Made by a program: the position numbers and the translations under genes | NCBI GenBank assembly: GCA_021801225.1 | Contig: JAJYYF010000002.1 | Location: 317-64,316, forward strand | Source: Candidatus Micrarchaeota archaeon | GTDB lineage: Archaea; Micrarchaeota; Micrarchaeia; Micrarchaeales; CABMGC01 | Length of the DNA: 64,000 nt | Reading direction: 5' to 3' | The notes under the pieces: model-generated | Database searches by the model: none | Seen by the model: the letters and a program-made list of their open reading frames with translations, nothing else | Told to the model about the DNA's origin: nothing | Part shown: positions 23,963-33,655 of the stretch, piece by piece | How positions within the stretch are numbered: position 1 is the first letter of the stretch | Layout: every line of letters starts with the position of its first letter

Positions 23963-24742
23963 TCAGACAATTTTTTTATTTTTAATCTCTAAACTTTCTA
24001 TAGAGCTTACTACTCCTACAACTTCAGAGTTACCTTTTATTACTACTCCAGGTCCGTTTATTAAAGCGGCTCTATGAATTATAGAAAAATCTAAAATTTT
24101 GGCACCAAACACCTCTGAACTTTCAAAAACCTTCGAGTGTCCGCTTATTATTGAATCTAATATTGTAGCTTCACCAAAAACTTTTGAGTGTTCACAAATT
24201 TTAGAATGCTCAATAACTGCCTTACCATAAACCTCCGCATAATCAGTAATGCTAGAATATTTAACCTCAGCATGTCCATGGATTATTGCGTTTTTCGATA
24301 TTATAGACTTTTGTAGAATCTTTGCATATCCAAAAATCTCTGCGTTATCACATACTACTGAGTCTGTAAATACCTCTGCATTTCCATGAACTTTTGCATG
24401 TCCAGTTATTTTTCCGCCATGTATCCATGCATTTTCATATATTACTGCGTTCGGACCCACATATGCTTGTTTGTTAACTCTTGCAGTGCTTTCGACAAAC
24501 CCTCCAATCTCTCCAAAACGATTAATATGTCTAGAAAATAATCTTTCTCCAATTTTTACCTCTGTTACTTTAGTGCTTAATTTTGAAAGTCTAGCTATAA
24601 CATCAGAATTAATAAAATCCTCATTTCTTTTTAAATTTCTAAGATTCAGATCACTTCCACTTATTTTTATCATTTTTATCCCAAAAATGTTATATTTATT
24701 TAAATATTTATTTCTATCTTTAAAAGATGCTTTCAAAATCAT
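23963..24742 (-). CDS. Hexapeptide-repeat (left-handed beta-helix, YdcK-like) protein, GGF-motif family member A
   Basis: FSRHINRFGEIGGFVESTARVNKQAYVGPNAVI, then about 20 hexapeptide units (GHAKVH GNAEVF TDSVVC DNAEIF GYAKIL ..). Paralog of 25379..26002. Probable true start is M24 (24673), which is preceded by a leader resembling the family leader (TTTAAATAAATATAACATTTTTGGGATAAAA-ATG). Confidence 0.6.
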   Translation of the reverse strand: MILKASFKDRNKYLNKYNIFGIKMIKISGSDLNLRNLKRNEDFINSDVIARLSKLSTKVTEVKIGERLFSRHINRFGEIGGFVESTARVNKQAYVGPNAVIYENAWIHGGKITGHAKVHGNAEVFTDSVVCDNAEIFGYAKILQKSIISKNAIIHGHAEVKYSSITDYAEVYGKAVIEHSKICEHSKVFGEATILDSIISGHSKVFESSEVFGAKILDFSIIHRAALINGPGVVIKGNSEVVGVVSSIESLEIKNKKIV

Positions 24743-24773
24743 AATTTATATATACTAAAAAATAAATTTTATC

Positions 24774-24852
24774 AGATAAAATGATGATAAACACTGAAAT
24801 TGAAAATAAAAAAGTTGATAAGCTTTCAGATTTAATACTTATTTATTTATAA
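24774..24852 (+). pseudogene. Truncated fragment of the GGF-family gene (leader end plus 23 codons)
   Basis: CAGATAAAATG start context as in the family leader. Encoded ..NKKVDKLSDL matches SKKVHAISDL of 25379..26002, and AAAAAAGTTGATAAG recurs at 27337. Confidence 0.35.
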
Positions 24853-24880
24853 TGTATGATGTGATTTTATAATACATAAT

Positions 24881-25240
24881 ATGTCTCTAAATCCTGAGCC
24901 TTTTGAAAGTATAAAGAATGGCAATAAAACTATAGAAATACGTTTATTTGATGAAAAACGTCAAAAGGTTCAACCTAAGGATATAATAGTATTTACAAAG
25001 TTGCCAGACAAGAAAGAAAAAATAGCAGTAGAGGTGATAGATCTTGCAGTATTCTCTTCTTTTAGAGAGCTACTATCAAATTTTGATAAATCAAAATTTG
25101 GTCATTCAGATAAAATGACATTGGAGGAGCAGATAGAGCGTCAGCGAGAACATTACACCGAAGATGAAGAAAGGAGATATGGAGTTGTAGGCATTAAGAT
25201 TAAATTAATAGATAGATTGCCTGATAATGTAAATATATAA
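24881..25240 (+). CDS. ASCH domain protein
   Basis: PEPFESIKNGNKTIEIRLFDEKRQKVQPKDIIVF is the typical ASCH (ASC-1 homology) beta-barrel N-terminus, in a ~120-aa single-domain protein. Confidence 0.65.
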   Translation: MSLNPEPFESIKNGNKTIEIRLFDEKRQKVQPKDIIVFTKLPDKKEKIAVEVIDLAVFSSFRELLSNFDKSKFGHSDKMTLEEQIERQREHYTEDEERRYGVVGIKIKLIDRLPDNVNI

Positions 25241-25293
25241 TCAGAGAGATTTTTCAATCCAAGTAAACAAAATTACATTAATTTACAACTAAA

Positions 25294-25378
25294 TAATATA
25301 CTGTTGGTATTTCTAATATACTTTTAGAATAAAACAAAGCATATATATCTGAAAAATCAAAATTATTTATCTGATAAA
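25294..25378 (+). promoter_or_regulatory. Family promoter-leader module, copy 1
   Basis: TAATATACTGTTGGTATTTCTAATATACTTTTAGAATAAAACAAAGCATATATAT..CTGATAAA-ATG. Holds an A/T TATA-like box and an SD-like element before the ATG. Confidence 0.55.
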
Positions 25379-26002
25379 ATGGAGAACTTTATTAATATAA
25401 ATAAGGTGGAAACTATAACAACAAAAACTGCTCTTAACAAAACACTTAAAGGTGCAGACATCACAAACCTAAACCTCAAAAACGCATACGTCACAGATGT
25501 AAAACTTGTAAGTAAAAAAGTCCATGCTATTTCAGATCTTCAGAAGCTTAATATAAGCGTGCAGAATGCGGAGATTAGCGGCAGGGAGTTTTCCAGGCAT
25601 AAAAACCCTGATGGCACAGTAGGTGGATTTGTAGAAAAAACAGCGACGGTAGCTGAGACAGCGTATATAGGTCCAAAAGCATTAGTATTAGACAAGGCAC
25701 AGGTCTTAGATAGCGCACAAATCTTAGACAAAGCACAAATCTCCGGCGATGCGAGGGTTTCTGACGACGCAAAGGTCTACGACCGTGCAAAGGTTTACGA
25801 CTATGCATCTATCTCAGAAAAGACACAAGTTTACGGCAAAGCACAAGTCTTCGGCAAGGCACTGGTCGAAGGCAACGCACAAATCTTCGGCGACGCATTG
25901 GTCTTCGAGCATGCGGAGGTTCGCGGCGGTACACGAATATCCGACAATGTACATAGAACTAGATTAGATTTAATAGGCGCAAAGAGAATGTTGCGTAAAT
26001 AA
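25379..26002 (+). CDS. Hexapeptide-repeat (YdcK-like) protein, GGF-motif family member C
   Basis: FSRHKNPDGTVGGFVEKTATVAETAYIGPKALV, then 13 perfect-register hexapeptides (DKAQVL DSAQIL DKAQIS GDARVS DDAKVY DRAKVY DYASIS EKTQVY GKAQVF GKALVE GNAQIF GDALVF EHAEVR GG). Ends ..RMLRK. Confidence 0.65.
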   Translation: MENFININKVETITTKTALNKTLKGADITNLNLKNAYVTDVKLVSKKVHAISDLQKLNISVQNAEISGREFSRHKNPDGTVGGFVEKTATVAETAYIGPKALVLDKAQVLDSAQILDKAQISGDARVSDDAKVYDRAKVYDYASISEKTQVYGKAQVFGKALVEGNAQIFGDALVFEHAEVRGGTRISDNVHRTRLDLIGAKRMLRK

Positions 26003-26027
26003 AATTAAAGTGCGAATACCTTTAAGA

Positions 26028-26115
26028 TAATATACTTTGGGTATTTTTAATATAATTTTAGAATAAAACAAAGTATATATGTGTATTTATACAAACAAAA
26101 AAATTAAGTGATAAA
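26028..26115 (+). promoter_or_regulatory. Family promoter-leader module, copy 2
   Basis: TAATATACTTTGGGTATTTTTAATATAATTTTAGAATAAAACAAAGTATATAT..AAAAAAATTAAGTGATAAA-ATG. Preceded by the shared 3' unit TTGCGTAAATAAAATTAAAGT. Confidence 0.55.
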
Positions 26116-26331
26116 ATGACGATTAAAAAAATCAAACCTGATCTAAATAATTTGGAAGCCAAACAAACAACATTATGTTCTGATGCGATTACAAAACCAT
26201 TGGAGTCTATGCCTGAGGAGATACGTGTACCAATAGGTGGATTTTCAGTAGTGATTGCAAAGAAAGGCGACAGGATAGCTGGAGTGGATAAGATAAATGC
26301 AGTAAGTACAAAAAACATATTGCGTAAATAA
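26116..26331 (+). CDS. Small GGF-motif family member D (truncated paralog, no beta-helix)
   Basis: EEIRVPIGGFSVVIAKKG.. retains the GGF motif and the family C-terminus ..NILRK. Own leader module. Confidence 0.45.
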   Translation: MTIKKIKPDLNNLEAKQTTLCSDAITKPLESMPEEIRVPIGGFSVVIAKKGDRIAGVDKINAVSTKNILRK

Positions 26332-26355
26332 AATTATAGTCTACTGCTATTAGGG

Positions 26356-26436
26356 TAATATACTGTTGGTTTTTCTAATATAATTTTAGAAAGCAACAAG
26401 TTATATATTTAGACAAACAAAAAATTAAGTGATAAA
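26356..26436 (+). promoter_or_regulatory. Family promoter-leader module, copy 3
   Basis: TAATATACTGTTGGTTTTTCTAATATAATTTTAGAAAGCAACAAGTTATATAT..AAAAAATTAAGTGATAAA-ATG. Preceded by TTGCGTAAATAAAATTATAGT. Confidence 0.55.
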
Positions 26437-26607
26437 ATGAACACGTTCTATAACGGAAAAAAAGTGCCAAAAGAGTTTCTTATGCTTCGGCTATCTGATG
26501 GCAGGACAATAAAAGATGTTATAAAAGCTATGAAAGAAACAGAAAAAAAGCAAAGGCCCAAACCACCGCGTGTGCATTTTGAAGAGCTAGAGCCACGTTT
26601 ACTTTAA
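26437..26607 (+). CDS. Small hypothetical protein (56 aa), below the ORF-track size cutoff
   Basis: Own translation MNTFYNGKKVPKEFLMLRLSDGRTIKDVIKAMKETEKKQRPKPPRVHFEELEPRLL. Starts exactly where leader copy 3 places the ATG. Confidence 0.4.
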   Translation: MNTFYNGKKVPKEFLMLRLSDGRTIKDVIKAMKETEKKQRPKPPRVHFEELEPRLL

Positions 26608-26674
26608 ATCAGTTTTGTTTATTCAAGTAATGATATGATCTAATGCCGAAGAAGATAAATTAACCAGATGAAAA

Positions 26675-26718
26675 AAACAAGCATATTTATATTTAAATAA
26701 ATAATTTTTAGTGATAAA
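26675..26718 (+). promoter_or_regulatory. Family promoter-leader module, partial copy 4
   Basis: AACAAGCATATTTATATTTAAATAAATAATTTTTAGTGATAAA-ATG keeps only the TATA-proximal and SD part of the module. Confidence 0.4.
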
Positions 26719-27231
26719 ATGACTAGAATATCAAAAGTTGCTTCGAATGATAAGATTATACCAAAGCAACTAAGTCTAGATGAACTTATATTGCTAGCTA
26801 AAAAGGTCAGTATACCACCAACCAAGGATAGTTGGTGGACAATTAAAGAATATAATAGTACATTTGGCAGTAAATGCAAATATACTGGGAGAGTTGGAGG
26901 GTTTATAATACAAATAGAAAAAACATTTGACCTTGATTATGATATAATGGACCATGAGCATCAAAATAACTTTAATATTATGGCAATATCAATTAATAAC
27001 CAATTAGAGCTTGGCAATGAATTTTTTAGGTTCAAAGATCATCATGGTAGGTATGATTTTTCAAATCCAGAACGTTTTAAGGATAAAGCAGCATATGATA
27101 AATGGTATTTAAAAACTTATAAAGAACTTGATGAACTTTGCGATAAAATAGATAATGCTGTCCATGAGTCTTGCAATCCTGTATTAATTGATGAATTAAA
27201 AACAGTAAGAACTCTTTTACGAAATAAATAG
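26719..27231 (+). CDS. GGF-motif family member F with a different, non-repeat C-terminal domain
   Basis: KYTGRVGGFIIQIEKT shares the G-x-V-GGF motif. Ends ..TLLRNK like the LRK tails of C and D. The middle domain has no hexapeptide repeats. Confidence 0.5.
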   Translation: MTRISKVASNDKIIPKQLSLDELILLAKKVSIPPTKDSWWTIKEYNSTFGSKCKYTGRVGGFIIQIEKTFDLDYDIMDHEHQNNFNIMAISINNQLELGNEFFRFKDHHGRYDFSNPERFKDKAAYDKWYLKTYKELDELCDKIDNAVHESCNPVLIDELKTVRTLLRNK

Positions 27232-27240
27232 AAATTTATT

Positions 27241-27360
27241 TCTGATAAATAATTTACCAAATAATAAAGACTTCTCAGATCCAAAACTTCAAAGAGTAAC
27301 TATCTCTTTTGAAAATATAAAAACAATTTGTAAGTAAAAAAGTTGATAATAAGTTAAGAG
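27241..27360 (+). pseudogene. Decayed GGF-family gene start (start codon lost, stops in frame)
   Basis: AAATTTATTTCTGATAAATAA matches leader copy 1 (AAAATTATTTATCTGATAAAATGG) with ATG mutated to ATA. TTGTAAGTAAAAAAGT is identical to 25505-25520 inside gene C, and AAAAAAGTTGATAATAAG matches 24809-24823. Confidence 0.4.
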
Positions 27361-28148
27361 GCCAAACAAAGAGCTAAAAACAAATACTAAATAGTTTTTT
27401 CATTTAAATGAAATATTTAGATTTTTTAGTAACTTTAATTGATTTTCAAATATATGAAATAAAAACTTTGCTAAAAAAAGTAACTCATTTCAAAATTATG
27501 AAAATTAAGGCATAATAGTTAAGGCATCAATATTATTTGAAAAACAGTCTTAAAAAAGTTGTTACTTCCTCTGAGACCATTTTTTATACCATATTTATGA
27601 AATATTTTAATTGATTTTCATAATAATGATATTTTAAATTTCATGATTAAATTTATGTGGATTTAGAGTAAAATAAGACCTGCGACGACAAAAATATGCT
27701 TTAATTTGACCATATTTAAACGCAAATTTTTATTTTGAGTAAATGCATAATAATATAGATCGTGCGTTAAAACGTAAAATAAGAAGAAATTAGAAAAATG
27801 AGAGATAGTATTAGAAATACTAAAATAGTATGAGAATAGTTATCTGGAAGTTTTAAAATATAAGTAAATTCAAGTTTATAATTATTTTTTATTACTACCA
27901 AAAATATGTAGTAATACTAAACATCAATTACATAAAAAGTAAAAATTAAATTATAATAACTTAAAAAAGTTTATAGGATTTTTAATATTATTAATTTTCC
28001 CAGAATATCAAAAACCGTTAAAAAACCGTTAATTTTGTTTATATTATTAAATATTATATATTCTTAAAATATGTTAGAAATACCAAGATAATATAAAATA
28101 TTAAATACATTTTTATATTAAACTAAAATATTCCCAAGAAGAAAATTT

Positions 28149-30410
28149 CTAAGATGAGAAGGCTATGCCTTTAGGGCTATTAAATCCAGAGGTCCACGCA
28201 CCGATTACGTCGCCGTTTGAGGGATTGATTTCTACTACATTATTAGAGTAGTAATTAGTAACATATGCATTTCCGGAGTAGAAGGCTATGCTGTAAGGAT
28301 ACTCAATTCCAGAAGTCCACGTACCGATTACGTCGCCGTTTGAGGGATTGATTTCTACTACATTTGCCGAATTAACAACATACGCATTTCCAGAGTAGAA
28401 GGCTATGCTGTAAGGATACTCAATTCCAGAAGTCCACGTACCGATTACGTCGCCGTTTGAGGGATTGATTTCTACTACATTGTTAGAACCGGAATTAACA
28501 ACATATGCATTTCCGGAGTAAAAGGCTATGTCCGCAGGAGAACTGAATCCAGAAGTCCACGCACCGATTACGTCGCCGTTTGAGGGATTGATTTCTACTA
28601 CATTTGCTGAATTAGTAACATAAGCATTTCCGGAGTAAAAGGTTATACGTGTAGGGTCATTAAATCCAGAGTTCCACGTACCGATTACGTCGCCGTTTGA
28701 GGGATTGATTTCTATTACATTGCCAGAAAAACGATTAACAACATAAGCATTTTCTGAGTAGAATATTATGCCTTGAGGAGAATCAAATCCGGAAGTTATT
28801 GAGTCAAAAACATTTCCTGTATTTGCGTCTACAATACTTACATTATTATAATTACTAACATAAGCATAAGGGTCATTCGTTACAAGAATATTTACCGGAG
28901 TACTTGTTGCCTGATTGCCTTGATTGTCTGAAGTTTGTAAATTGAATTGGTATGTCCCAGTAGTTGCACTTGATGGAGGTGAAAATGTGAAGGTATTTGA
29001 GGTTGCACTAGATATTTGAGAGAATGATGAAGACCCAGGAGCTTCTTCATACCATTGAAAATTTGTTGCTCCACATGAAATAGATGTGAGAGTAGTACTC
29101 CTGAGACCACTTAGAAATATCTCAGAGTTAGGAGGTTGATTTATCGAAGCACATATGGGACTTGTTTGCAGATTGAAAGTATATACTTCGTAAGATACCA
29201 TGGCACTGTTTGGATAACCAAAAGCTAATATATTAAATGAGTAAGAGCCAGCAGATTGGTCATTGCAAACTATTCCTAAAACACTCTCTGCATAATCATT
29301 ATGTCCTGAAACAGAAAATTTATTAGAACATCCAGAAGGAAGATTATTTGTAATACTACAAGATCCGACGGATGAACCTTCCTCACCACATGCTACTAAA
29401 ATTACAACATAAGAAAGATGTGATAATGTATATGAGATTGAATATGAATCTCCACTTCCTTGACCTGATGATGAGGTAACTGTATAAGGAAGATTTGTTG
29501 TAACGCCTATTGCACCTATAACTACATTTGCACCAGCAATTGCAGATGCACTACAAGTTAAATCGGTCTGTTGACCAACATTTGTACTCGAGTATATGTC
29601 ATTTGTAGTTGTAGTCCAGGAAGGCGTAAGGCCTGCATTTTGACCTTGCGAGTTATATAAACCCACTGCACCTGCACAGAATATCATATTTCCAGAACTT
29701 ACTGTTGCTGAAGTAGAGGTTGTACCAAAATTAGAATTATAAGTAATTGTAGGTGATGTTGCAACACCACTTAAAGTTTCTCCCTGTGTACCGGAACTCC
29801 CTGAACCTGTGTTGCCAAGATTTATTGATGTAGATGTACCAACCTTTCCAGTGAAAACCCCTATATTAGTTTCTTGATTTGGAACTCCATGGTTTTGATA
29901 CTGAATCCATAATCTTCCTGAGAAATCTGAACCTATTGTATTTGAGGGTAATGTACATTTAAAACCAAGTGTTCCTGTAACACCATTAAAAAATGTTGGA
30001 TTATTGAGGGGTTGTTGTATCCATTGATTAGAATTTGGGGGTGCTGTTGAGTTCGTACATGCAGTAGCAGTTATTGTTATTTGTGAACCTAAGGACTGAC
30101 CAAAATTAATCAAAACATTACCACTTGTATCCATTACTGGATTACTACATAAGAAACCACTTTGTGCTACGCAAGAGGTAGGAATGCCTGAACCACTTCC
30201 ATTAAAAACACCTAACTCAAATAAAACAACAAGCGCAATCGCAATGATTAAAATTGACCACCCATATGTCATTAAGTACTCCATAGCGCTTTGAGCTTGA
30301 GAACTTTTATTCTTTGATAATGCTCCGAAAACTTTATTGTGATTAATTACCTTTTTCTGAGAAAAAGATTTTTTTAAAGGTTTCTTTGAAGTACTTGATA
30401 AATTTGACAT
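28149..30410 (-). CDS. Surface protein (753 aa): class III signal peptide/pilin-like N-module plus C-terminal six-blade YVTN-type beta-propeller
   Basis: N-terminus ..SQAQSAMEYLMTYGWSILIIAIALVVLFELGVF. Cys-paired head module; Ser/Thr/Gly-rich middle. C-terminal repeats AYV(V/T)NS..NVVEINPSNGDVIG(T/A)WTSGF..P..IAFYSGN x6. Confidence 0.8.
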   Translation of the reverse strand: MSNLSSTSKKPLKKSFSQKKVINHNKVFGALSKNKSSQAQSAMEYLMTYGWSILIIAIALVVLFELGVFNGSGSGIPTSCVAQSGFLCSNPVMDTSGNVLINFGQSLGSQITITATACTNSTAPPNSNQWIQQPLNNPTFFNGVTGTLGFKCTLPSNTIGSDFSGRLWIQYQNHGVPNQETNIGVFTGKVGTSTSINLGNTGSGSSGTQGETLSGVATSPTITYNSNFGTTSTSATVSSGNMIFCAGAVGLYNSQGQNAGLTPSWTTTTNDIYSSTNVGQQTDLTCSASAIAGANVVIGAIGVTTNLPYTVTSSSGQGSGDSYSISYTLSHLSYVVILVACGEEGSSVGSCSITNNLPSGCSNKFSVSGHNDYAESVLGIVCNDQSAGSYSFNILAFGYPNSAMVSYEVYTFNLQTSPICASINQPPNSEIFLSGLRSTTLTSISCGATNFQWYEEAPGSSSFSQISSATSNTFTFSPPSSATTGTYQFNLQTSDNQGNQATSTPVNILVTNDPYAYVSNYNNVSIVDANTGNVFDSITSGFDSPQGIIFYSENAYVVNRFSGNVIEINPSNGDVIGTWNSGFNDPTRITFYSGNAYVTNSANVVEINPSNGDVIGAWTSGFSSPADIAFYSGNAYVVNSGSNNVVEINPSNGDVIGTWTSGIEYPYSIAFYSGNAYVVNSANVVEINPSNGDVIGTWTSGIEYPYSIAFYSGNAYVTNYYSNNVVEINPSNGDVIGAWTSGFNSPKGIAFSS
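28152..28870 (-). repeat. Six tandem 117/123-bp coding repeats (propeller blades), five with an identical core
   Basis: CCGATTACGTCGCCGTTTGAGGGATTGATTTCTA(C/T)TACATT starts at 28201, 28324, 28441, 28564 and 28681 (spacing 123/117/123/117). Confidence 0.9.
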
Positions 30411-31051: not shown

Positions 31052-31747
31052 TTATTTATTTAAAGAACTTAGATAAACTGCTAATGGTTTCGATAAATTA
31101 TTTTTAATTACAACTGCTCCTTCTATTTTTGCCCTAGAAAAATTAGTTTTATCTATATTACAATTTTCAAATACTGCATTAGTTAGATCTGCACCTGTGA
31201 AATTAGTATAATCTAAATCGCTATTTAGGAAGTGTGTATTTCTAAATATTCCATTAGATGCATTTATATTTATGAATCTTGATTCTGCAATTTTTGATTC
31301 TGAAAAATCAGTTTTTATGCAAGTAGCCTGTCTGAGATTTGTGTTTATTAAAATAGATCCTTGTACTTTTGAGTTAGATAAATCTACATAAGCCATATAT
31401 GCGTTTGAAAGATTAGAGTTATTAAAACTACATTCTGTTGCTTTTACACCTACAAAGTTTGCACGCAGTAACTTTGATTTATTAAATATTCCACCACTCA
31501 AATCTGATCCTTCAAAGTTTGTGTTACTCAAATCAGAATCAATTATAATGAGATTTGGTAAATCACTCTTTTTAAGATCTTTACCTATTAATTTAATTTG
31601 TTTATAGTATTTGTATCCGATGGAGTACTCTCTTAATAGCTCCTCTGAACTTATCTCCTTTCTTTCTTTCCTTAAAACATTTTCTAATGGTTTTTCACCA
31701 TTTCGGGGTTTTTCTCTAAATTGGGCCATATTATCACATTTTAGCAT
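31052..31747 (-). CDS. Pentapeptide repeat protein
   Basis: Long run of A(D/N)LxX pentads: SDLSNTNFEGSDLSGGIFNKSKLLRANFVGVKATECSFNNSNLSNAYMAYVDLSNSKVQGS..ADLTNAVFENCNIDKTNFSRAKIEG. Confidence 0.8.
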   Translation of the reverse strand: MLKCDNMAQFREKPRNGEKPLENVLRKERKEISSEELLREYSIGYKYYKQIKLIGKDLKKSDLPNLIIIDSDLSNTNFEGSDLSGGIFNKSKLLRANFVGVKATECSFNNSNLSNAYMAYVDLSNSKVQGSILINTNLRQATCIKTDFSESKIAESRFININASNGIFRNTHFLNSDLDYTNFTGADLTNAVFENCNIDKTNFSRAKIEGAVVIKNNLSKPLAVYLSSLNK

Positions 31748-33043: not shown

Positions 33044-33655
33044 TTATTTTTTCTTAAATGCTGCTTTTAATCTATCAAAACCTTCTGAAACAATAACATA
33101 ACTGCCACTTATTGTTATTATTGCAGGGATAGGATTCAATGTAAGTACAGATGTAGCTATCCCTGATGCAATTAAAGTTTTTGATATTGGCGCTGATAGT
33201 ATATCTGCAAATATTTGTTTTTTTGAAGTGGATAACTTTGTAGATGAGTCAATATCAAAAATACATATACCACTTTTAAATGCACGTGTGTGTTTATCTT
33301 CTTCACTAGATAATATAGAGACTATCTCTGGTATTTTTTTACTTGTTCCTAATGCAAATGCATGTCTTTTTCCATGACCTACGAACTTATCTGAATAAAT
33401 TAATGTAGCGCCATAATGTAATAATCTCCCTTTTTTGTCTATAATCATTGCTCCATCAAGTGATGCTAAATGCTTTATTGTTGTTTTATCTTTTTTATTT
33501 AATACTGATAAGTGTTTACCATTTTTTTTAAATATATCAGAGTTATAGTCTTTGTAGTATTTTGTCTTTACTTTTTCCGTCTCTACTACAAAACAACAGC
33601 CCTCCTTTTGATTTGTAGATAAATTTAAACACTCCTCTATAATCTTATCCATCAT
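33044..33655 (-). CDS. DAC (DisA_N, diadenylate cyclase-like) domain protein with C-terminal TM anchor
   Basis: LASLDGAMIIDKKGRLLHYGATL..GHGKRHAFALGTSKKIPEIVSILSSEEDKHTRAFKSG aligns by eye with the CdaA core HDGAVII..LGTRHRAALGISE..IVVSEETGGIS. The DGA motif is kept and RHR is RHA. C-terminal hydrophobic stretch TLIASGIATSVLTLNPIPAIITISGSYVIV. Confidence 0.55.
   Translation of the reverse strand: MMDKIIEECLNLSTNQKEGCCFVVETEKVKTKYYKDYNSDIFKKNGKHLSVLNKKDKTTIKHLASLDGAMIIDKKGRLLHYGATLIYSDKFVGHGKRHAFALGTSKKIPEIVSILSSEEDKHTRAFKSGICIFDIDSSTKLSTSKKQIFADILSAPISKTLIASGIATSVLTLNPIPAIITISGSYVIVSEGFDRLKAAFKKK

What the first reader, a model, noticed from the sequence alone, without database searches (positions are those of the whole stretch)
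23963..27360. Birth-and-death array of GGF-motif / hexapeptide (YdcK-like) genes, each rebuilt on the same ~85-bp promoter-leader module
Seen directly: four proteins share a short motif, G-x-(V/I)-GGF. They are A 23963-24742(-) GEIGGFVESTARV, C 25379-26002 GTVGGFVEKTATV, D 26116-26331 PIGGFSVV and F 26719-27231 GRVGGFIIQIEKT. Three of them end in the same tail (MLRK, ILRK, LLRNK). What follows the motif differs. A and C have a long left-handed-beta-helix hexapeptide run, D has almost nothing, and F has an unrelated domain. Three consecutive genes (C, D and the 56-aa ORF at 26437) sit behind near-identical upstream modules: TAATATACTGTTGG(T)(A/T)TTT(C/T)TAATATAATTTTAGAA..AACAA(A)G.ATATAT..AAGTGATAAA-ATG. 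F and the probable true start of A (24673) keep the TATA/SD-proximal part. The repeat unit also covers the last codons and stop of the preceding gene (TTGCGTAAATAAAATTA at 25991 and 26320), so whole gene-plus-leader units were copied and then given different payloads. Two dead copies bracket the block. One is a 23-codon stub at 24774-24852. The other is a copy at 27241 whose ATG is now ATA. Inference: this is a fast-turnover, modular family with a constant N-terminal handle, constant expression signals and a variable C-terminal payload. Formally that resembles polymorphic-effector or cassette loci, and I know of no described archaeal system of this kind. An ASCH-domain gene and small ORFs are interleaved.
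Basis: partly seen in the sequence, partly recalled or inferred. Interest (0 to 1): 0.72.

Follow-up and report, generated by a model that had tools for sequence, protein, structure and literature searches.

The report
Archaeal solenoid-gene array sharing one promoter
In an uncultivated AT-rich archaeon, a cluster of small beta-helix (YdcK-type) genes has been duplicated, truncated and partly overwritten by unrelated genes that all reuse the same ~135-base "gene-end plus promoter" unit; it is a clear example of a recombining gene-cassette array, but not a new kind of genetic system.

Summary
The sequence features are real. Three ~135-nt modules (25250-25384, 25976-26120, 26306-26440) precede C, D and E, and two dead solenoid-gene copies bracket the block. 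The proposed shared handle does not hold. G-x-x-GG-F is the N-terminal cap motif of the YdcK beta-helix family (A and C only). D shares only the family's 3' tail, E shares nothing, and F's GGF is not conserved in its only distant homolog. The module has three parts: the native 3' end of a solenoid gene (..LRK*), a ~45-nt family-specific upstream element, and this organism's generic BRE/TATA box and Shine-Dalgarno sequence. It has no conserved hairpin and no integrase lies nearby, so it is not an integron. The same module heads at least seven unrelated protein families in related archaeal contigs. Two cassette-level differences from a sister strain lie at modules (a VapBC unit and a 97-aa gene). 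ASCH and VapBC sit inside shells of dead solenoid genes. The module-bearing cassettes have GC3 well above host genes. Best reading: a recombination-prone, partly horizontally exchanged cassette array built on a tandem YdcK-type family. Protein function is unknown. Moderate interest; new variant of a known kind.

The parts
23963..24673 (-). Gene A: divergent YdcK-type left-handed beta-helix paralog (236 aa from the ATG at 24673; the ORF is open to 24742). It has its own generic promoter and SD, no family module and no LRK tail.
   Evidence: BLASTP to C gives 35% identity, E=3e-25. Family HMM 9.6e-74. NCBIfam YdcK_fam 1.2e-13 and phrog_5070 7.8e-29. GC3 is host-like at 0.19. Start 24673 fits the family alignment and the TATA/SD geometry.
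24744..24852 (+). Dead solenoid-gene 5' end: BRE/TATA plus SD (24744-24780), then a 23-codon stub ORF (24781-24852) whose first ~17 codons match the family N-terminus (..KKVDKLSDL).
   Evidence: Local alignment to the promoter plus 5' coding region of paralog L017a has z=9.1, 0/300 shuffles. The head DNA-HMM hit at 24798-24831 is marginal, E=0.54.
24881..25240 (+). ASCH-domain gene lodged between the 5' stub and the 3' tail relic of a dead solenoid gene.
   Evidence: Pfam ASCH 6.9e-13. phrog_19935 2.3e-20. Host-like GC3 of 0.225. The tail relic lies at the start of module c1 (model position 8 onward).
25250..25384 (+). Module copy c1: degenerate tail relic, core at 25307-25322, AAAG plus TATATATA at ~25336-25348, SD CTGAT, ATG at 25379. 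It is a chimera of the two modules that flank the VapBC insert in strain L008, with the crossover inside 25293-25331.
   Evidence: nhmmer E=1.5e-23. Window 25293-25331 aligns to both L008 8755-8793 and L008 9921-9959. Junction alignment.
25379..26002 (+). Gene C: YdcK-type beta-helix protein (207 aa) with a disordered N-terminal extension, a GGF cap, ~6 helix turns and a C-terminal helix ending ..RLDLIGAKRMLRK*.
   Evidence: Pfam B_solenoid_ydck 1.2e-11, 44 bits against a cutoff of 30. PDB YdcK 2f9c E=1.7e-18 with the family profile. AF2 pLDDT 82.6, beta-helix at residues 45-190. GC3 of 0.41 is the highest of 58 window ORFs. dS 0.155 against L008, compared with 0.02-0.07 in the flanks.
25976..26120 (+). 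Module copy c2 (C tail, spacer, core at 26041-26056, TATA, SD, ATG of D).
   Evidence: nhmmer E=1.8e-26..
26116..26331 (+). Gene D: 71-aa species-restricted orphan. Its last ~12 codons and stop are a solenoid-gene tail (..NILRK*).
   Evidence: Tail DNA-HMM hit at 26294-26331, E=0.0015. hhalign matches the tail only, E=0.015. Only a 97% ortholog exists among 5.8 billion proteins. No Pfam, NCBIfam or PHROG hit.
26306..26440 (+). Module copy c3 (D tail, spacer, core at 26369-26384, TATA, SD, ATG of E).
   Evidence: nhmmer E=1.1e-25..
26437..26607 (+). Gene E: 56-aa basic orphan (pI 10) behind a full module. It has no family tail.
   Evidence: 98% conserved in L008, with 1 nonsynonymous and 2 synonymous changes.
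26676..27231 (+). Gene F (26719-27231, 170 aa) with a generic TATA/SD promoter (26676-26718) that lacks the family core. F belongs to a two-member orphan family. Its homolog in L210 does carry the full module.
   Evidence: Only P0106 (93%) and P0107 (45%) are found among 5.8 billion and 1.84 billion proteins. L210 module E=2.4e-16. The upstream similarity is weak, z=2.9. Host-like GC3 of 0.20.
27232..27360 (+). Dead copy after F: SD-like CTGATAAATAA at 27242-27252 (the ATG is lost), and a 25-nt relic of the family 5' coding region at 27325-27349 interrupted by stops.
   Evidence: 23/25 nt identical to L017a, z=5.2, 0/300 shuffles. Head HMM hit at model positions 17-41. The repeat finder D5, D9 and D17.
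28059..28092 (-). Minus-strand module core remnant (core at 28068-28083). In strain L008 the equivalent full module drives a 97-aa minus-strand gene that the window lacks.
   Evidence: nhmmer E=0.0023. Core pattern with 1 mismatch. Alignment with L008. Window 27707-28062 is non-homologous to L008 12337-12856.

Best explanation
The locus is a recombination-prone cassette array built on a lineage-specific tandem family of small YdcK-type left-handed beta-helix genes.

Each unit is an ORF preceded by a ~135-nt module with three parts:
- (i) the last ~25 nt and stop of a solenoid gene (K-R/S-x-L-R-K*);
- (ii) a ~45-nt family-specific upstream element, with the invariant heart GTATTTCnAAyATAAT;
- (iii) the organism's ordinary BRE/TATA (AAAG plus TATATATA, ~35 nt before the ATG) and Shine-Dalgarno sequence (GTGAT).

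Shown:
- The modules and conserved gene ends are dispersed direct repeats, and homologous recombination between them adds and removes units. Window module c1 is a crossover product of the two modules flanking VapBC in the sister strain.
- The array carries dead heads and tails.
- Unrelated genes (ASCH, VapBC) sit inside the shells of former solenoid genes.

Inferred:
- D, E and F arrived by the same route. D carries a family tail, but E and F show no detectable family relic.
- The captured genes are transcribed from the family promoter.
- Element (ii) is a protein-binding site that co-regulates the set, vapBC included.
- The cassettes form a pool exchanged between arrays and genomes. The basis is high GC3 in three different AT-rich hosts, and a VapBC unit 86-95% identical in three different neighbourhoods.
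- The solenoid proteins are non-enzymatic beta-helix scaffolds or binders. Their cellular role is unknown.
For: Module is real and locus-specific:
-.
- Its 3' half is generic. The same SD and AAAG-TATA geometry occur before many window genes.
- Its tail is the native family C-terminus.

Same module before at least 7 unrelated families in related contigs:
- YdcK-type solenoids, pentapeptide-repeat proteins, VapB-PIN, the F family, an 81-aa family, D and E.

Recombination at modules:
- The VapBC indel junctions lie inside the core.
- A second indel (97-aa gene) lies at a minus-strand module.

Shells:
- 55 codons of solenoid 3' end follow directly after the PIN stop in L008.
- Stub and tail relics lie around ASCH.
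- A relic follows F.

Chimeric proteins:
- A 42-aa N-terminus is shared by a left-handed beta-helix protein and a pentapeptide protein.

Pool-like behaviour:
- VapBC coding DNA is 93-95% identical, and the whole unit ~86%, across L008, L014 and L055, while neighbouring solenoids are 66-80% identical.
- GC3 is 0.41 for C and 0.33-0.44 for cassettes, against 0.215+/-0.042 for host genes, in three hosts.
- C is more diverged than the flanks (dS 0.155 against 0.02-0.07).

DNA-level element, not a structured one:
- RNAalifold finds 0 pairs.
- ssDNA folds have z of +0.3 to -1.6 for 8 of 10 strands.
- The palindrome is paired in 57.6% of cells, against 57.6% in shuffles.
- No Rfam family.

Family identity:
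-.
- Tandem arrays are a general habit of the family.
Against: - No transcription data: promoter activity, the TSS and the role of the core are inferred from sequence geometry only.
- Within the species the array order is fixed in at least 15 contigs, and only two cassette-level differences separate the two haplotypes. Turnover is slow, and the pattern could reflect a few old accidents rather than an ongoing process.
- Whether L014, L017 and L210 are different organisms or other loci of close relatives is not established, because no housekeeping genes are shared between the contigs. The VapBC similarity could therefore be intragenomic paralogy.
- High GC3 might reflect GC-biased gene conversion or amino-acid and codon constraints of the repeats rather than horizontal transfer.
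- A genome-wide census of the module was not possible.
- D, E and F may not all be functional genes (dN/dS 0.57 for D and 0.70 for F, on few substitutions).
Confidence: 0.6

Rival explanations
1. Polymorphic-effector or cassette locus as proposed by the first reader. Proteins A, C, D and F share a translated N-terminal handle (G-x-V/I-GGF) and a common tail, and differ in a swapped C-terminal payload.
For: - GGF is locally enriched: 4 of 6 occurrences in the window.
- LRK-like tails occur on C, D and F.
- D's tail is homologous at the DNA level.
- In related loci, a 42-aa N-terminus is shared by two different solenoid types.
Against: - GGF is the YdcK family cap, aligned to GGW of 2f9c and invariant in 42 homologs.
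- D, E and F show no profile homology to the family head and no DNA-level head homology.
- F's motif is GDF in its homolog and NDF in a weakly similar repeat.
- No toxin, effector or immunity domains are present.
Confidence: 0.08
2. Integron-like array (CALIN). The inter-ORF repeats are attC-type recombination sites used by an integron integrase encoded elsewhere.
For: - Short ORFs lie mostly in one orientation, separated by ~100-140-nt repeats.
- TA and hexapeptide-type cassettes are typical integron cargo, and archaeal integrons and CALINs exist (PMC9668308).
- The VapBC cassette indel is bounded by the repeats.
Against: - No conserved hairpin: RNAalifold finds 0 pairs.
- ssDNA folding is not better than shuffles for 8 of 10 strands.
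- The best palindrome is paired no more often than in shuffled or slid controls.
- The repeat contains each gene's own BRE/TATA and SD in fixed register with the ATG, and includes coding sequence of the upstream gene.
- No tyrosine recombinase appears in any of the loci.
Confidence: 0.03
3. Static co-regulated gene cluster. The module is simply the operator and promoter of a regulon. Its similarity among genes is maintained by selection for a common regulator, not by a cassette dynamic, and the relics are ordinary pseudogene debris.
For: - The core is conserved as an asymmetric sequence, with invariant positions, across genomes at the same distance from the TATA box.
- It is also present at vapB promoters.
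- Gene order is invariant within the species.
- Paralogous modules within a genome are as diverged (78%) as modules between genomes (75-82%), so there has been no recent homogenisation.
Against: - Conservation extends into the preceding gene's coding tail, and non-solenoid ORFs inherit that tail.
- Indel junctions lie inside the module.
- The same cassettes occur in different orders and neighbourhoods.
- The cassettes have anomalous GC3.

This rival is compatible with the regulatory half of the best explanation. It differs only in denying exchange.
Confidence: 0.2
4. Remnant of an integrated virus or plasmid accessory region. The solenoid, ASCH and TA genes are morons from a mobile element, and the module is that element's promoter type.
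For: - A and C hit phrog_5070 and phrog_7964 at ~1e-28, and ASCH hits phrog_19935 at 2e-20.
- YdcK-type genes lie in accessory or early regions of 8 viral contigs.
- The cassettes are compositionally foreign.
- The locus is adjacent to hypervariable surface-protein genes.
Against: - No integrase, capsid, terminase or replication genes occur in or near any array.
- No tRNA or att-like boundary is present.
- The module is absent from IMG/VR viral contigs and from the 8 viral YdcK loci.
- A, ASCH and F have host-like GC3.
Confidence: 0.09

Closest known systems
YdcK family (E. coli/Salmonella YdcK; PDB 2F9C/2PIG; Pfam PF18836 B_solenoid_ydck; NCBIfam NF040481)
   Same: - Left-handed beta-helix of YdcK-type repeats, preceded by a G-x-x-GG-[FW]-V cap.
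- Function is uncharacterised in both. No functional paper was found.
   Different: - The archaeal proteins are shorter (168-258 aa against 326 aa).
- They have their own conserved head (GR.FSRHKN.DGT.GGFVEKTA) and a C-terminal helix ending LRK.
- They score far below the NCBIfam equivalog cutoff (38-51 bits against 350).
- They occur as tandem arrays behind a dedicated promoter module.
Integrons / CALINs, including archaeal ones (Ghaly et al. 2022, PMC9668308)
   Same: - Arrays of short, mostly co-oriented ORFs separated by ~100-nt repeats.
- TA cassettes are present.
- Cassette presence/absence is bounded by the repeats.
   Different: - No attC hairpin.
- No IntI.
- Every cassette has its own promoter and SD.
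- The repeat overlaps coding sequence.
- Exchange looks like homologous recombination rather than site-specific recombination.
Orphan-module arrays of polymorphic toxin loci (Rhs, CDI) that swap by homologous recombination at a conserved junction (own knowledge, not tested here)
   Same: - Truncated 'orphan' gene ends with short conserved junction sequences lie next to an intact gene.
- Recombination at the conserved segment can replace a gene body.
   Different: - No toxin/immunity pairs.
- The conserved segment is mostly non-coding promoter DNA plus ~8 tail codons, not a translated pre-toxin domain.
- Payloads are whole unrelated genes.
Tandem contingency or multigene families with conserved 5' promoter-leader regions, e.g. 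Mycoplasma vsp/vlp lipoprotein loci (own knowledge, not tested here)
   Same: - Tandem paralogs have highly conserved upstream and 5' regions and variable repeat bodies.
- Repeat number changes by intragenic recombination.
   Different: - No signal peptide or lipobox, and no evidence of phase-variable switches.
- The proteins appear cytoplasmic.
- Unrelated genes are captured into the slots.
VapBC (PIN-domain) toxin-antitoxin modules
   Same: In sister strain L008 and in L014, L017 and L210, VapB (PF02697) plus PIN (PF01850) pairs are integral cassettes of the arrays, and their promoters carry the module core.
   Different: The window haplotype has lost, or never gained, the VapBC cassette. 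The TA pair is cargo, not the organising principle.

Membership tests
YdcK family / PF18836 | Score above Pfam's gathering threshold for B_solenoid_ydck | tested here: met
   C scores 44 bits against a cutoff of 30. A scores only 15 bits and is below the cutoff, but A is homologous to C (E=3e-25).
YdcK family / PF18836 | Left-handed beta-helix fold | tested here: met
   The AF2 model of C has pLDDT 95-99 over residues 50-180 with a regular beta-helix. Foldseek hits are all left-handed beta-helix proteins.
YdcK family / PF18836 | N-terminal cap motif G-x-x-G-G-[FW]-V aligned with that of solved YdcK | tested here: met
   The profile alignment pairs dGtiGGFvek with AGTSGGWVDA of 2f9c. G79, G82 and G83 are invariant in 42 sequences.
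YdcK family (NCBIfam NF040481 equivalog) | Full-length equivalog score (at least 350 bits) | tested here: not met
   A scores 50.7 bits and C 38.2 bits. They are members of the broad superfamily, not YdcK orthologs.
Hexapeptide acyltransferases (LpxA/LpxD/GlmU/PglD type) | Pfam Hexapep (PF00132) above threshold | tested here: not met
   A scores 22.9 bits and C 13 bits against a cutoff of 27. NCBIfam transferase models score 14-36 bits against cutoffs above 200.
Hexapeptide acyltransferases (LpxA/LpxD/GlmU/PglD type) | Conserved catalytic or substrate-binding residues | tested here: inconclusive
   In 42 homologs only the three cap glycines are invariant, and the near-invariant columns are repeat Ala/Val. 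No conserved His, Asp or Glu is evident. Oligomeric active sites cannot be assessed from sequence.
Integron / CALIN | attC sites that fold as imperfect single-stranded hairpins | tested here: not met
   RNAalifold finds 0 pairs. ssDNA z-scores are +0.3 to -1.6 for 8 of 10 strands. The candidate palindrome is 57.6% paired against 57.6% in shuffles.
Integron / CALIN | IntI tyrosine recombinase adjacent (optional for CALIN) | tested here: not met
   No recombinase domain appears among the genes of the window neighbourhood or the related loci. The rest of the genome was not available.
Integron / CALIN | Cassettes generally promoterless, expressed from Pc | tested here: not met
   Each unit carries AAAG plus TATATATA and an SD in fixed register with its ATG, like other genes of this genome. 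Activity was not tested.
Polymorphic toxin / effector loci | Conserved translated N-terminal domain shared by all variants | tested here: not met
   hhalign of D, E and F against the family gives only a 12-residue tail match for D and nothing for E and F. F's GGF is not conserved.
Polymorphic toxin / effector loci | C-terminal toxin domain with adjacent immunity gene | tested here: not met
   No toxin or immunity family is found in Pfam, NCBIfam, PHROGs or PADLOC for A, C, D, E or F.
MITE / mobile promoter-bearing repeat | Terminal inverted repeats and target-site duplications; insertion independent of gene register | tested here: not met
   No conserved inverted repeat. All strong copies lie on the gene's strand in fixed register with the ATG, and they include the upstream gene's tail.
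Anti-phage defence systems (PADLOC) | Match to a known or candidate defence protein model | tested here: not met
   No hits for A, ASCH, C, D, E or F at E<=0.01.

The most novel reading that the evidence does not exclude
The module is a portable adapter. It is a promoter-plus-gene-end unit whose copies serve as homology arms. Solenoid, toxin-antitoxin and orphan genes would then be exchanged between arrays and between genomes of these small AT-rich archaea by ordinary homologous recombination, without any dedicated integrase. That would be an integrase-free functional analogue of an integron in which every captured gene is automatically given expression signals and placed in a common regulon. 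The high GC3 of cassettes in three hosts, and the 86-95% identical VapBC unit in three different neighbourhoods, would be footprints of that traffic.
Probability: 0.2. Interest if true: 0.65.

Novelty: new variant of a known kind. Interest (0 to 1): 0.4.

Why it matters
If the reading is right, the locus shows how small, streamlined archaeal genomes can assemble and reshuffle accessory genes using only a repeated promoter/gene-end unit and homologous recombination. It also shows how orphan ORFs can be born in, or captured into, the slots of decaying paralogs with ready-made expression signals.

It supplies two concrete things:
- a conserved archaeal cis-element (GTATTTCnAAyATAAT, upstream of BRE/TATA) shared by solenoid genes and vapBC operons, which is testable for a regulator;
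- evidence that tandem amplification is a general property of the uncharacterised YdcK-type beta-helix family, which is also frequent in phages.

It does not reveal a new molecular machine, and the function of the proteins remains unknown.

Tried and rejected
1. Genome-collection scan with the IUPAC pattern TAATANNNTNTNRGTWTTTNNAANATANT. The pattern was too AT-rich. All but one were chance singletons in AT-rich bacteria (HMM re-screen). Only the Marsarchaeota contig L055 (the same contig as L017) was real.
2. Module on viruses. 27 hits, all chance.
3. Module in 73 other YdcK-encoding loci. None found, so the module is clade-specific.
4. Structured RNA leader, riboswitch or sRNA. RNAalifold found 0 pairs, and Rfam gave only a snoRNA hit at E=0.76. 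Rejected.
5. attC-like ssDNA hairpin. Rejected.
6. Dyad-symmetric operator. Not supported.
7. F as a family member. hhalign, DNA HMMs, its homolog and a deep profile search were all negative. The F structure model was unusable (pLDDT 46.7), so no fold search was run on it.
8. DNA-mimic idea for the solenoids. Their pI is 6.5-9.5, not acidic. Dropped.
9. Defence-system membership. PADLOC was negative.
10. Phage context of YdcK-like genes. Heterogeneous accessory regions, with no functional lead.
11. Organism naming by exact-sequence cluster look-up. No names were returned.
12. Literature on YdcK and PF18836. No functional study was found.

Full report
**What is in the sequence.**
A repeat search finds a 72-nt direct repeat in three copies (25294, 26028, 26356; 78% identity). 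It also finds an identical 22-mer at the starts of D and E, and a 47-nt repeat covering the last codons and stop of C and D. A 36-nt consensus of the repeat occurs three times in the 64-kb window against 0.00 expected. An iterated nucleotide HMM defines the unit as ~135 nt: 25250-25384, 25976-26120 and 26306-26440, all on the + strand (E=1e-23 to 1e-26).

**What the proteins are.**
C passes Pfam's threshold for the YdcK beta-solenoid repeat (44 bits against 30). A gives sub-threshold left-handed beta-helix hits and is 35% identical to C (E=3e-25). Both hit NCBIfam YdcK_fam, far below its equivalog cutoff, and two phage families of unknown function (phrog_5070 and phrog_7964, ~1e-28). Nothing matches PADLOC. 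A profile of the archaeal subfamily finds Salmonella YdcK (2F9C/2PIG) as the closest solved structure (E=1.7e-18), and the alignment pairs dGtiGGFvek with AGTSGGWVDA. In a 42-sequence alignment the only invariant residues are G79, G82 and G83.

AlphaFold2 predicts C as a confident beta-helix over residues ~45-190, with a disordered N-terminus and a short C-terminal helix (pLDDT 82.6). Foldseek returns only generic left-handed beta-helix proteins at TM~0.45. No conserved catalytic residue is evident, and no functional study of YdcK was found.

The subfamily has three regions:
- a conserved head, ..GR.FSRHKN.DGT.GGFVEKTA..;
- a variable number of helix turns;
- a conserved tail, ..STAQVEEYLKS..L..RLD.IGAKSILRK*.

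The shared LRK tail is therefore the native C-terminus of the solenoid genes.

**D, E and F are not family members.**
Profile-profile comparison matches D only over its last 12 residues (E=0.015) and does not match E or F. DNA-level HMMs confirm D's tail (26294-26331, E=0.0015) but find no family head in D or F. D has only a 97% ortholog among 5.8 billion proteins. F has one 93% ortholog and one 45% homolog, P0107, and a profile search of 1.84 billion representatives adds nothing credible. In P0107 the motif reads GDF. In the weak repeat match in a phage tail-fibre-like protein it reads NDF. GGF is locally enriched (4 of 6 occurrences in the window), so D's copy may be a relic, but it is not a conserved handle. 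The F model was unusable (pLDDT 46.7).

**Anatomy of the module.**
Aligning 20 non-redundant copies shows four blocks:
1. ..AAGAGnnTnTTGCGTAAATAA, the tail codons and stop;
2. a core, ATAATATAnTGTTGGTATTTCnAAyATAATTnnAGAAtgCAaCAAAG;
3. TATATATAT;
4. ..AAAATTAAnGTGATAAAATG.

The upstream regions of 58 other window genes show that GTGAT/GGTG/TTGAT at -10 to -5 is this genome's ordinary Shine-Dalgarno sequence. They also show that AAAG plus TATATATA or TTTAAATA, centred 29-37 nt before the ATG, is its ordinary BRE/TATA promoter. Blocks 3 and 4 are therefore generic, and what F and A 'keep' is generic. The family-specific parts are the tail and the ~45-nt core upstream of the TATA box.

The first genes of arrays in related loci keep the core but not the tail. 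vapB promoters keep the core alone. So the core belongs to the downstream promoter.

The module has no conserved secondary structure:
- RNAalifold predicts 0 pairs on 13 copies.
- ssDNA folds are no better than shuffles for 8 of 10 strands.
- The weak palindrome seen in the window copies is paired in 57.6% of cells, against 57.6% in shuffles.
- There is no Rfam match.

**Comparative evidence.**
The window haplotype (A-ASCH-C-D-E-F) recurs unchanged in at least 15 metagenome contigs. A sister lineage (L008-L013; flanks 98-99% identical) carries a ~1.1-kb insert between ASCH and C. The insert holds vapB, a PIN toxin, and directly after the PIN stop the last 55 codons of a solenoid gene. Window 25293-25331 aligns to both modules flanking that insert, so window module c1 is a left/right crossover product.

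A second difference lies past F. L008 has a 97-aa minus-strand gene behind a minus-strand module, while the window keeps only the core (28068-28083) next to non-homologous AT-rich DNA.

More distant contigs (L014/L015, L017=L055 labelled Ca. Marsarchaeota, and L210) carry 2-7 module copies each, at 75-82% identity. The modules stand in front of YdcK-type genes, two pentapeptide-repeat genes, vapBC pairs, an 81-aa family, the F homolog and other orphans, which makes at least seven unrelated families. A YdcK-type protein and a pentapeptide protein share their first 42 residues (69%, E=2e-13) and nothing else. The unit 'vapB promoter, vapBC, solenoid 3' fragment, module' occurs in three arrays with different neighbours. 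Its vapBC coding DNA is 93-95% identical and the whole unit ~86%, while the solenoid genes around it are 66-80% identical.

The module is absent from 65 other metagenome loci and 8 viral loci that encode YdcK-like proteins. Several of those loci also hold tandem arrays of the family (L164 has six genes in 2.7 kb).

**Relics in the window.**
The 24735-24860 segment aligns over ~90 nt to the TATA/SD plus first 17 codons of a short-N-terminus paralog (z=9.1, 0/300 shuffles). 27325-27349 matches 23/25 nt of the same codons (z=5.2, 0/300). Controls give z~0. ASCH thus sits between the head and the tail relic of a dead solenoid gene, and a further dead copy follows F.

**Evolutionary signals.**
Against L008, flanking genes have dS 0.02-0.07 and dN/dS of 0.33 or less (0.16 or less for all but the short PadR gene). 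C has dS 0.155 and dN 0.059. D and F have dN/dS 0.57 and 0.70, on few changes.

GC3 separates host-like genes from module-bearing cassettes:
- Host-like: LeuRS, ABC, CARDB, A, ASCH and F at 0.19-0.23. The window mean is 0.215+/-0.042.
- Cassettes: C 0.41 (the highest of 58 ORFs), E 0.33, D 0.28, VapBC 0.35-0.38, and the L014 and L017 solenoid and pentapeptide genes 0.33-0.42.
- The housekeeping flanks of the L014 and L017 arrays are at 0.18-0.30.

**Interpretation.**
The best-supported account is a tandem, lineage-specific YdcK-type family. Its conserved gene ends and promoter modules act as dispersed direct repeats. Recombination between them deletes and inserts units (shown at one junction, and very likely at a second), leaves heads and tails behind, makes chimeras, and lets unrelated genes occupy solenoid slots and use the family promoter.

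The core is most simply a protein-binding upstream element that places solenoid genes and vapBC under common control. This is inference, because no transcription data are available. The GC3 contrast and the near-identical VapBC unit suggest a cassette pool exchanged between arrays or genomes. GC-biased gene conversion and intragenomic paralogy are not excluded.

**What it is not.**
- It is not an integron or CALIN: there is no hairpin and no IntI, and each unit has its own promoter (compare the features in PMC9668308).
- It is not a polymorphic-toxin locus: there is no shared translated handle and no toxin or immunity domains.
- It is not a MITE, a structured RNA, or a known defence system.
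- No integrase or transposase lies nearby.
- The module is not on catalogued viral contigs.
- Phage homologs of the solenoid sit in heterogeneous accessory regions.

**Limits.**
The genome-collection scan was wasted on an over-AT-rich pattern, so a genome-wide census of the module is missing. The organism is known only through a related contig labelled Ca. Marsarchaeota. Promoter activity, the regulator, translation of D, E and F, and the biochemical role of the solenoids are untested.

**Verdict.**
The birth-and-death and shared-expression-signal reading is supported, while the GGF handle and polymorphic-effector reading is not. The locus is a new variant of a known kind, a recombining tandem multigene family or variable islet, with an unusually clear portable promoter/gene-end module. 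Interest is moderate.

Noticed in passing
window 25379-26002 (C); also 26116-26607 (D, E); L008 9084-9732; L014 and L017 arrays: The module-bearing cassettes have far higher third-position GC than host genes. C has GC3 0.41, the highest of 58 window ORFs (mean 0.215, sd 0.042). The same contrast with housekeeping flanks is seen in L014 and L017. A, ASCH and F are host-like.
   Followed up: partly
window 28149-30410 (-): The 753-aa pilin-like, NHL/PQQ-repeat surface protein is only ~76% identical (nt) to its counterpart in the sister strain (761 aa), and it is 714 aa in another contig. The left-flank genes are 98-99% identical. This is a hypervariable surface gene with internal ~120-nt repeats directly beside the array.
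   Followed up: partly
window 27232-28148: A ~900-nt non-coding stretch at 18-21% GC. Several independent metagenome contigs end at about window 27502. Window 27707-28062 is non-homologous to the sister strain, which has a 97-aa minus-strand gene there. The stretch holds two minus-strand core-like sites (27805-27820 and 28068-28083) and a conserved 35-aa ORF (27408-27515).
   Followed up: partly
L014 6001-6126 and L017 5157-5282: A YdcK-type left-handed-helix protein and a pentapeptide-repeat protein share their first 42 residues (69% identity, E=2e-13) and the upstream module, then diverge completely. This is a real case of one N-terminal segment fused to two different solenoid bodies.
   Followed up: yes
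L008 8976-10009; L014 4945-6008; L055 4631-5792: A ~1.1-kb unit (vapB promoter with module core, vapB, PIN, 55-codon solenoid 3' fragment, module) occurs in three arrays with different upstream and downstream genes. Its vapBC coding DNA is 93-95% identical and the whole unit ~86%.
   Followed up: partly
window 31052-31747 (-): A pentapeptide-repeat protein gene (Pfam 5e-32) lies ~4 kb from the array without any module. Pentapeptide genes are module-driven cassettes in the related L017 array, and the two are 25% identical.
   Followed up: partly
L164, L170, L150, L165, L169, L177 (metagenome loci): Tandem arrays of 3-6 YdcK-like genes occur in unrelated organisms (GC 40-68%) without this module. 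Tandem amplification seems a general property of the family. YdcK-type repeats also occur inside giant 1200-1500-aa ORFs (L181, L184-L190, L194, L196).
   Followed up: no
window 26851-26937 (F residues 45-73); P0115: F's beta-hairpin segment weakly resembles a unit repeated 7 times in an 1872-aa phage tail-fibre-like protein (Mtd_N plus Chlorovirus glycoprotein repeats), E=2e-4.
   Followed up: partly
window 33044-33655 (-): A DisA-type diadenylate cyclase (DAC) domain protein lies ~6 kb downstream of the array (Pfam 1.2e-9).
   Followed up: no
window 27212-27231 (end of F) compared with 25988-26002: F's tail ..TTACGAAATAAATAG (L-R-N-K-stop) equals the solenoid tail ..TTGCGTAAATAAAAT (L-R-K-stop) with a 1-nt deletion. 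The LLRNK tail is conserved in F's distant homolog. This suggests F's 3' end also derives from a solenoid tail, but the match is too short to test.
   Followed up: partly
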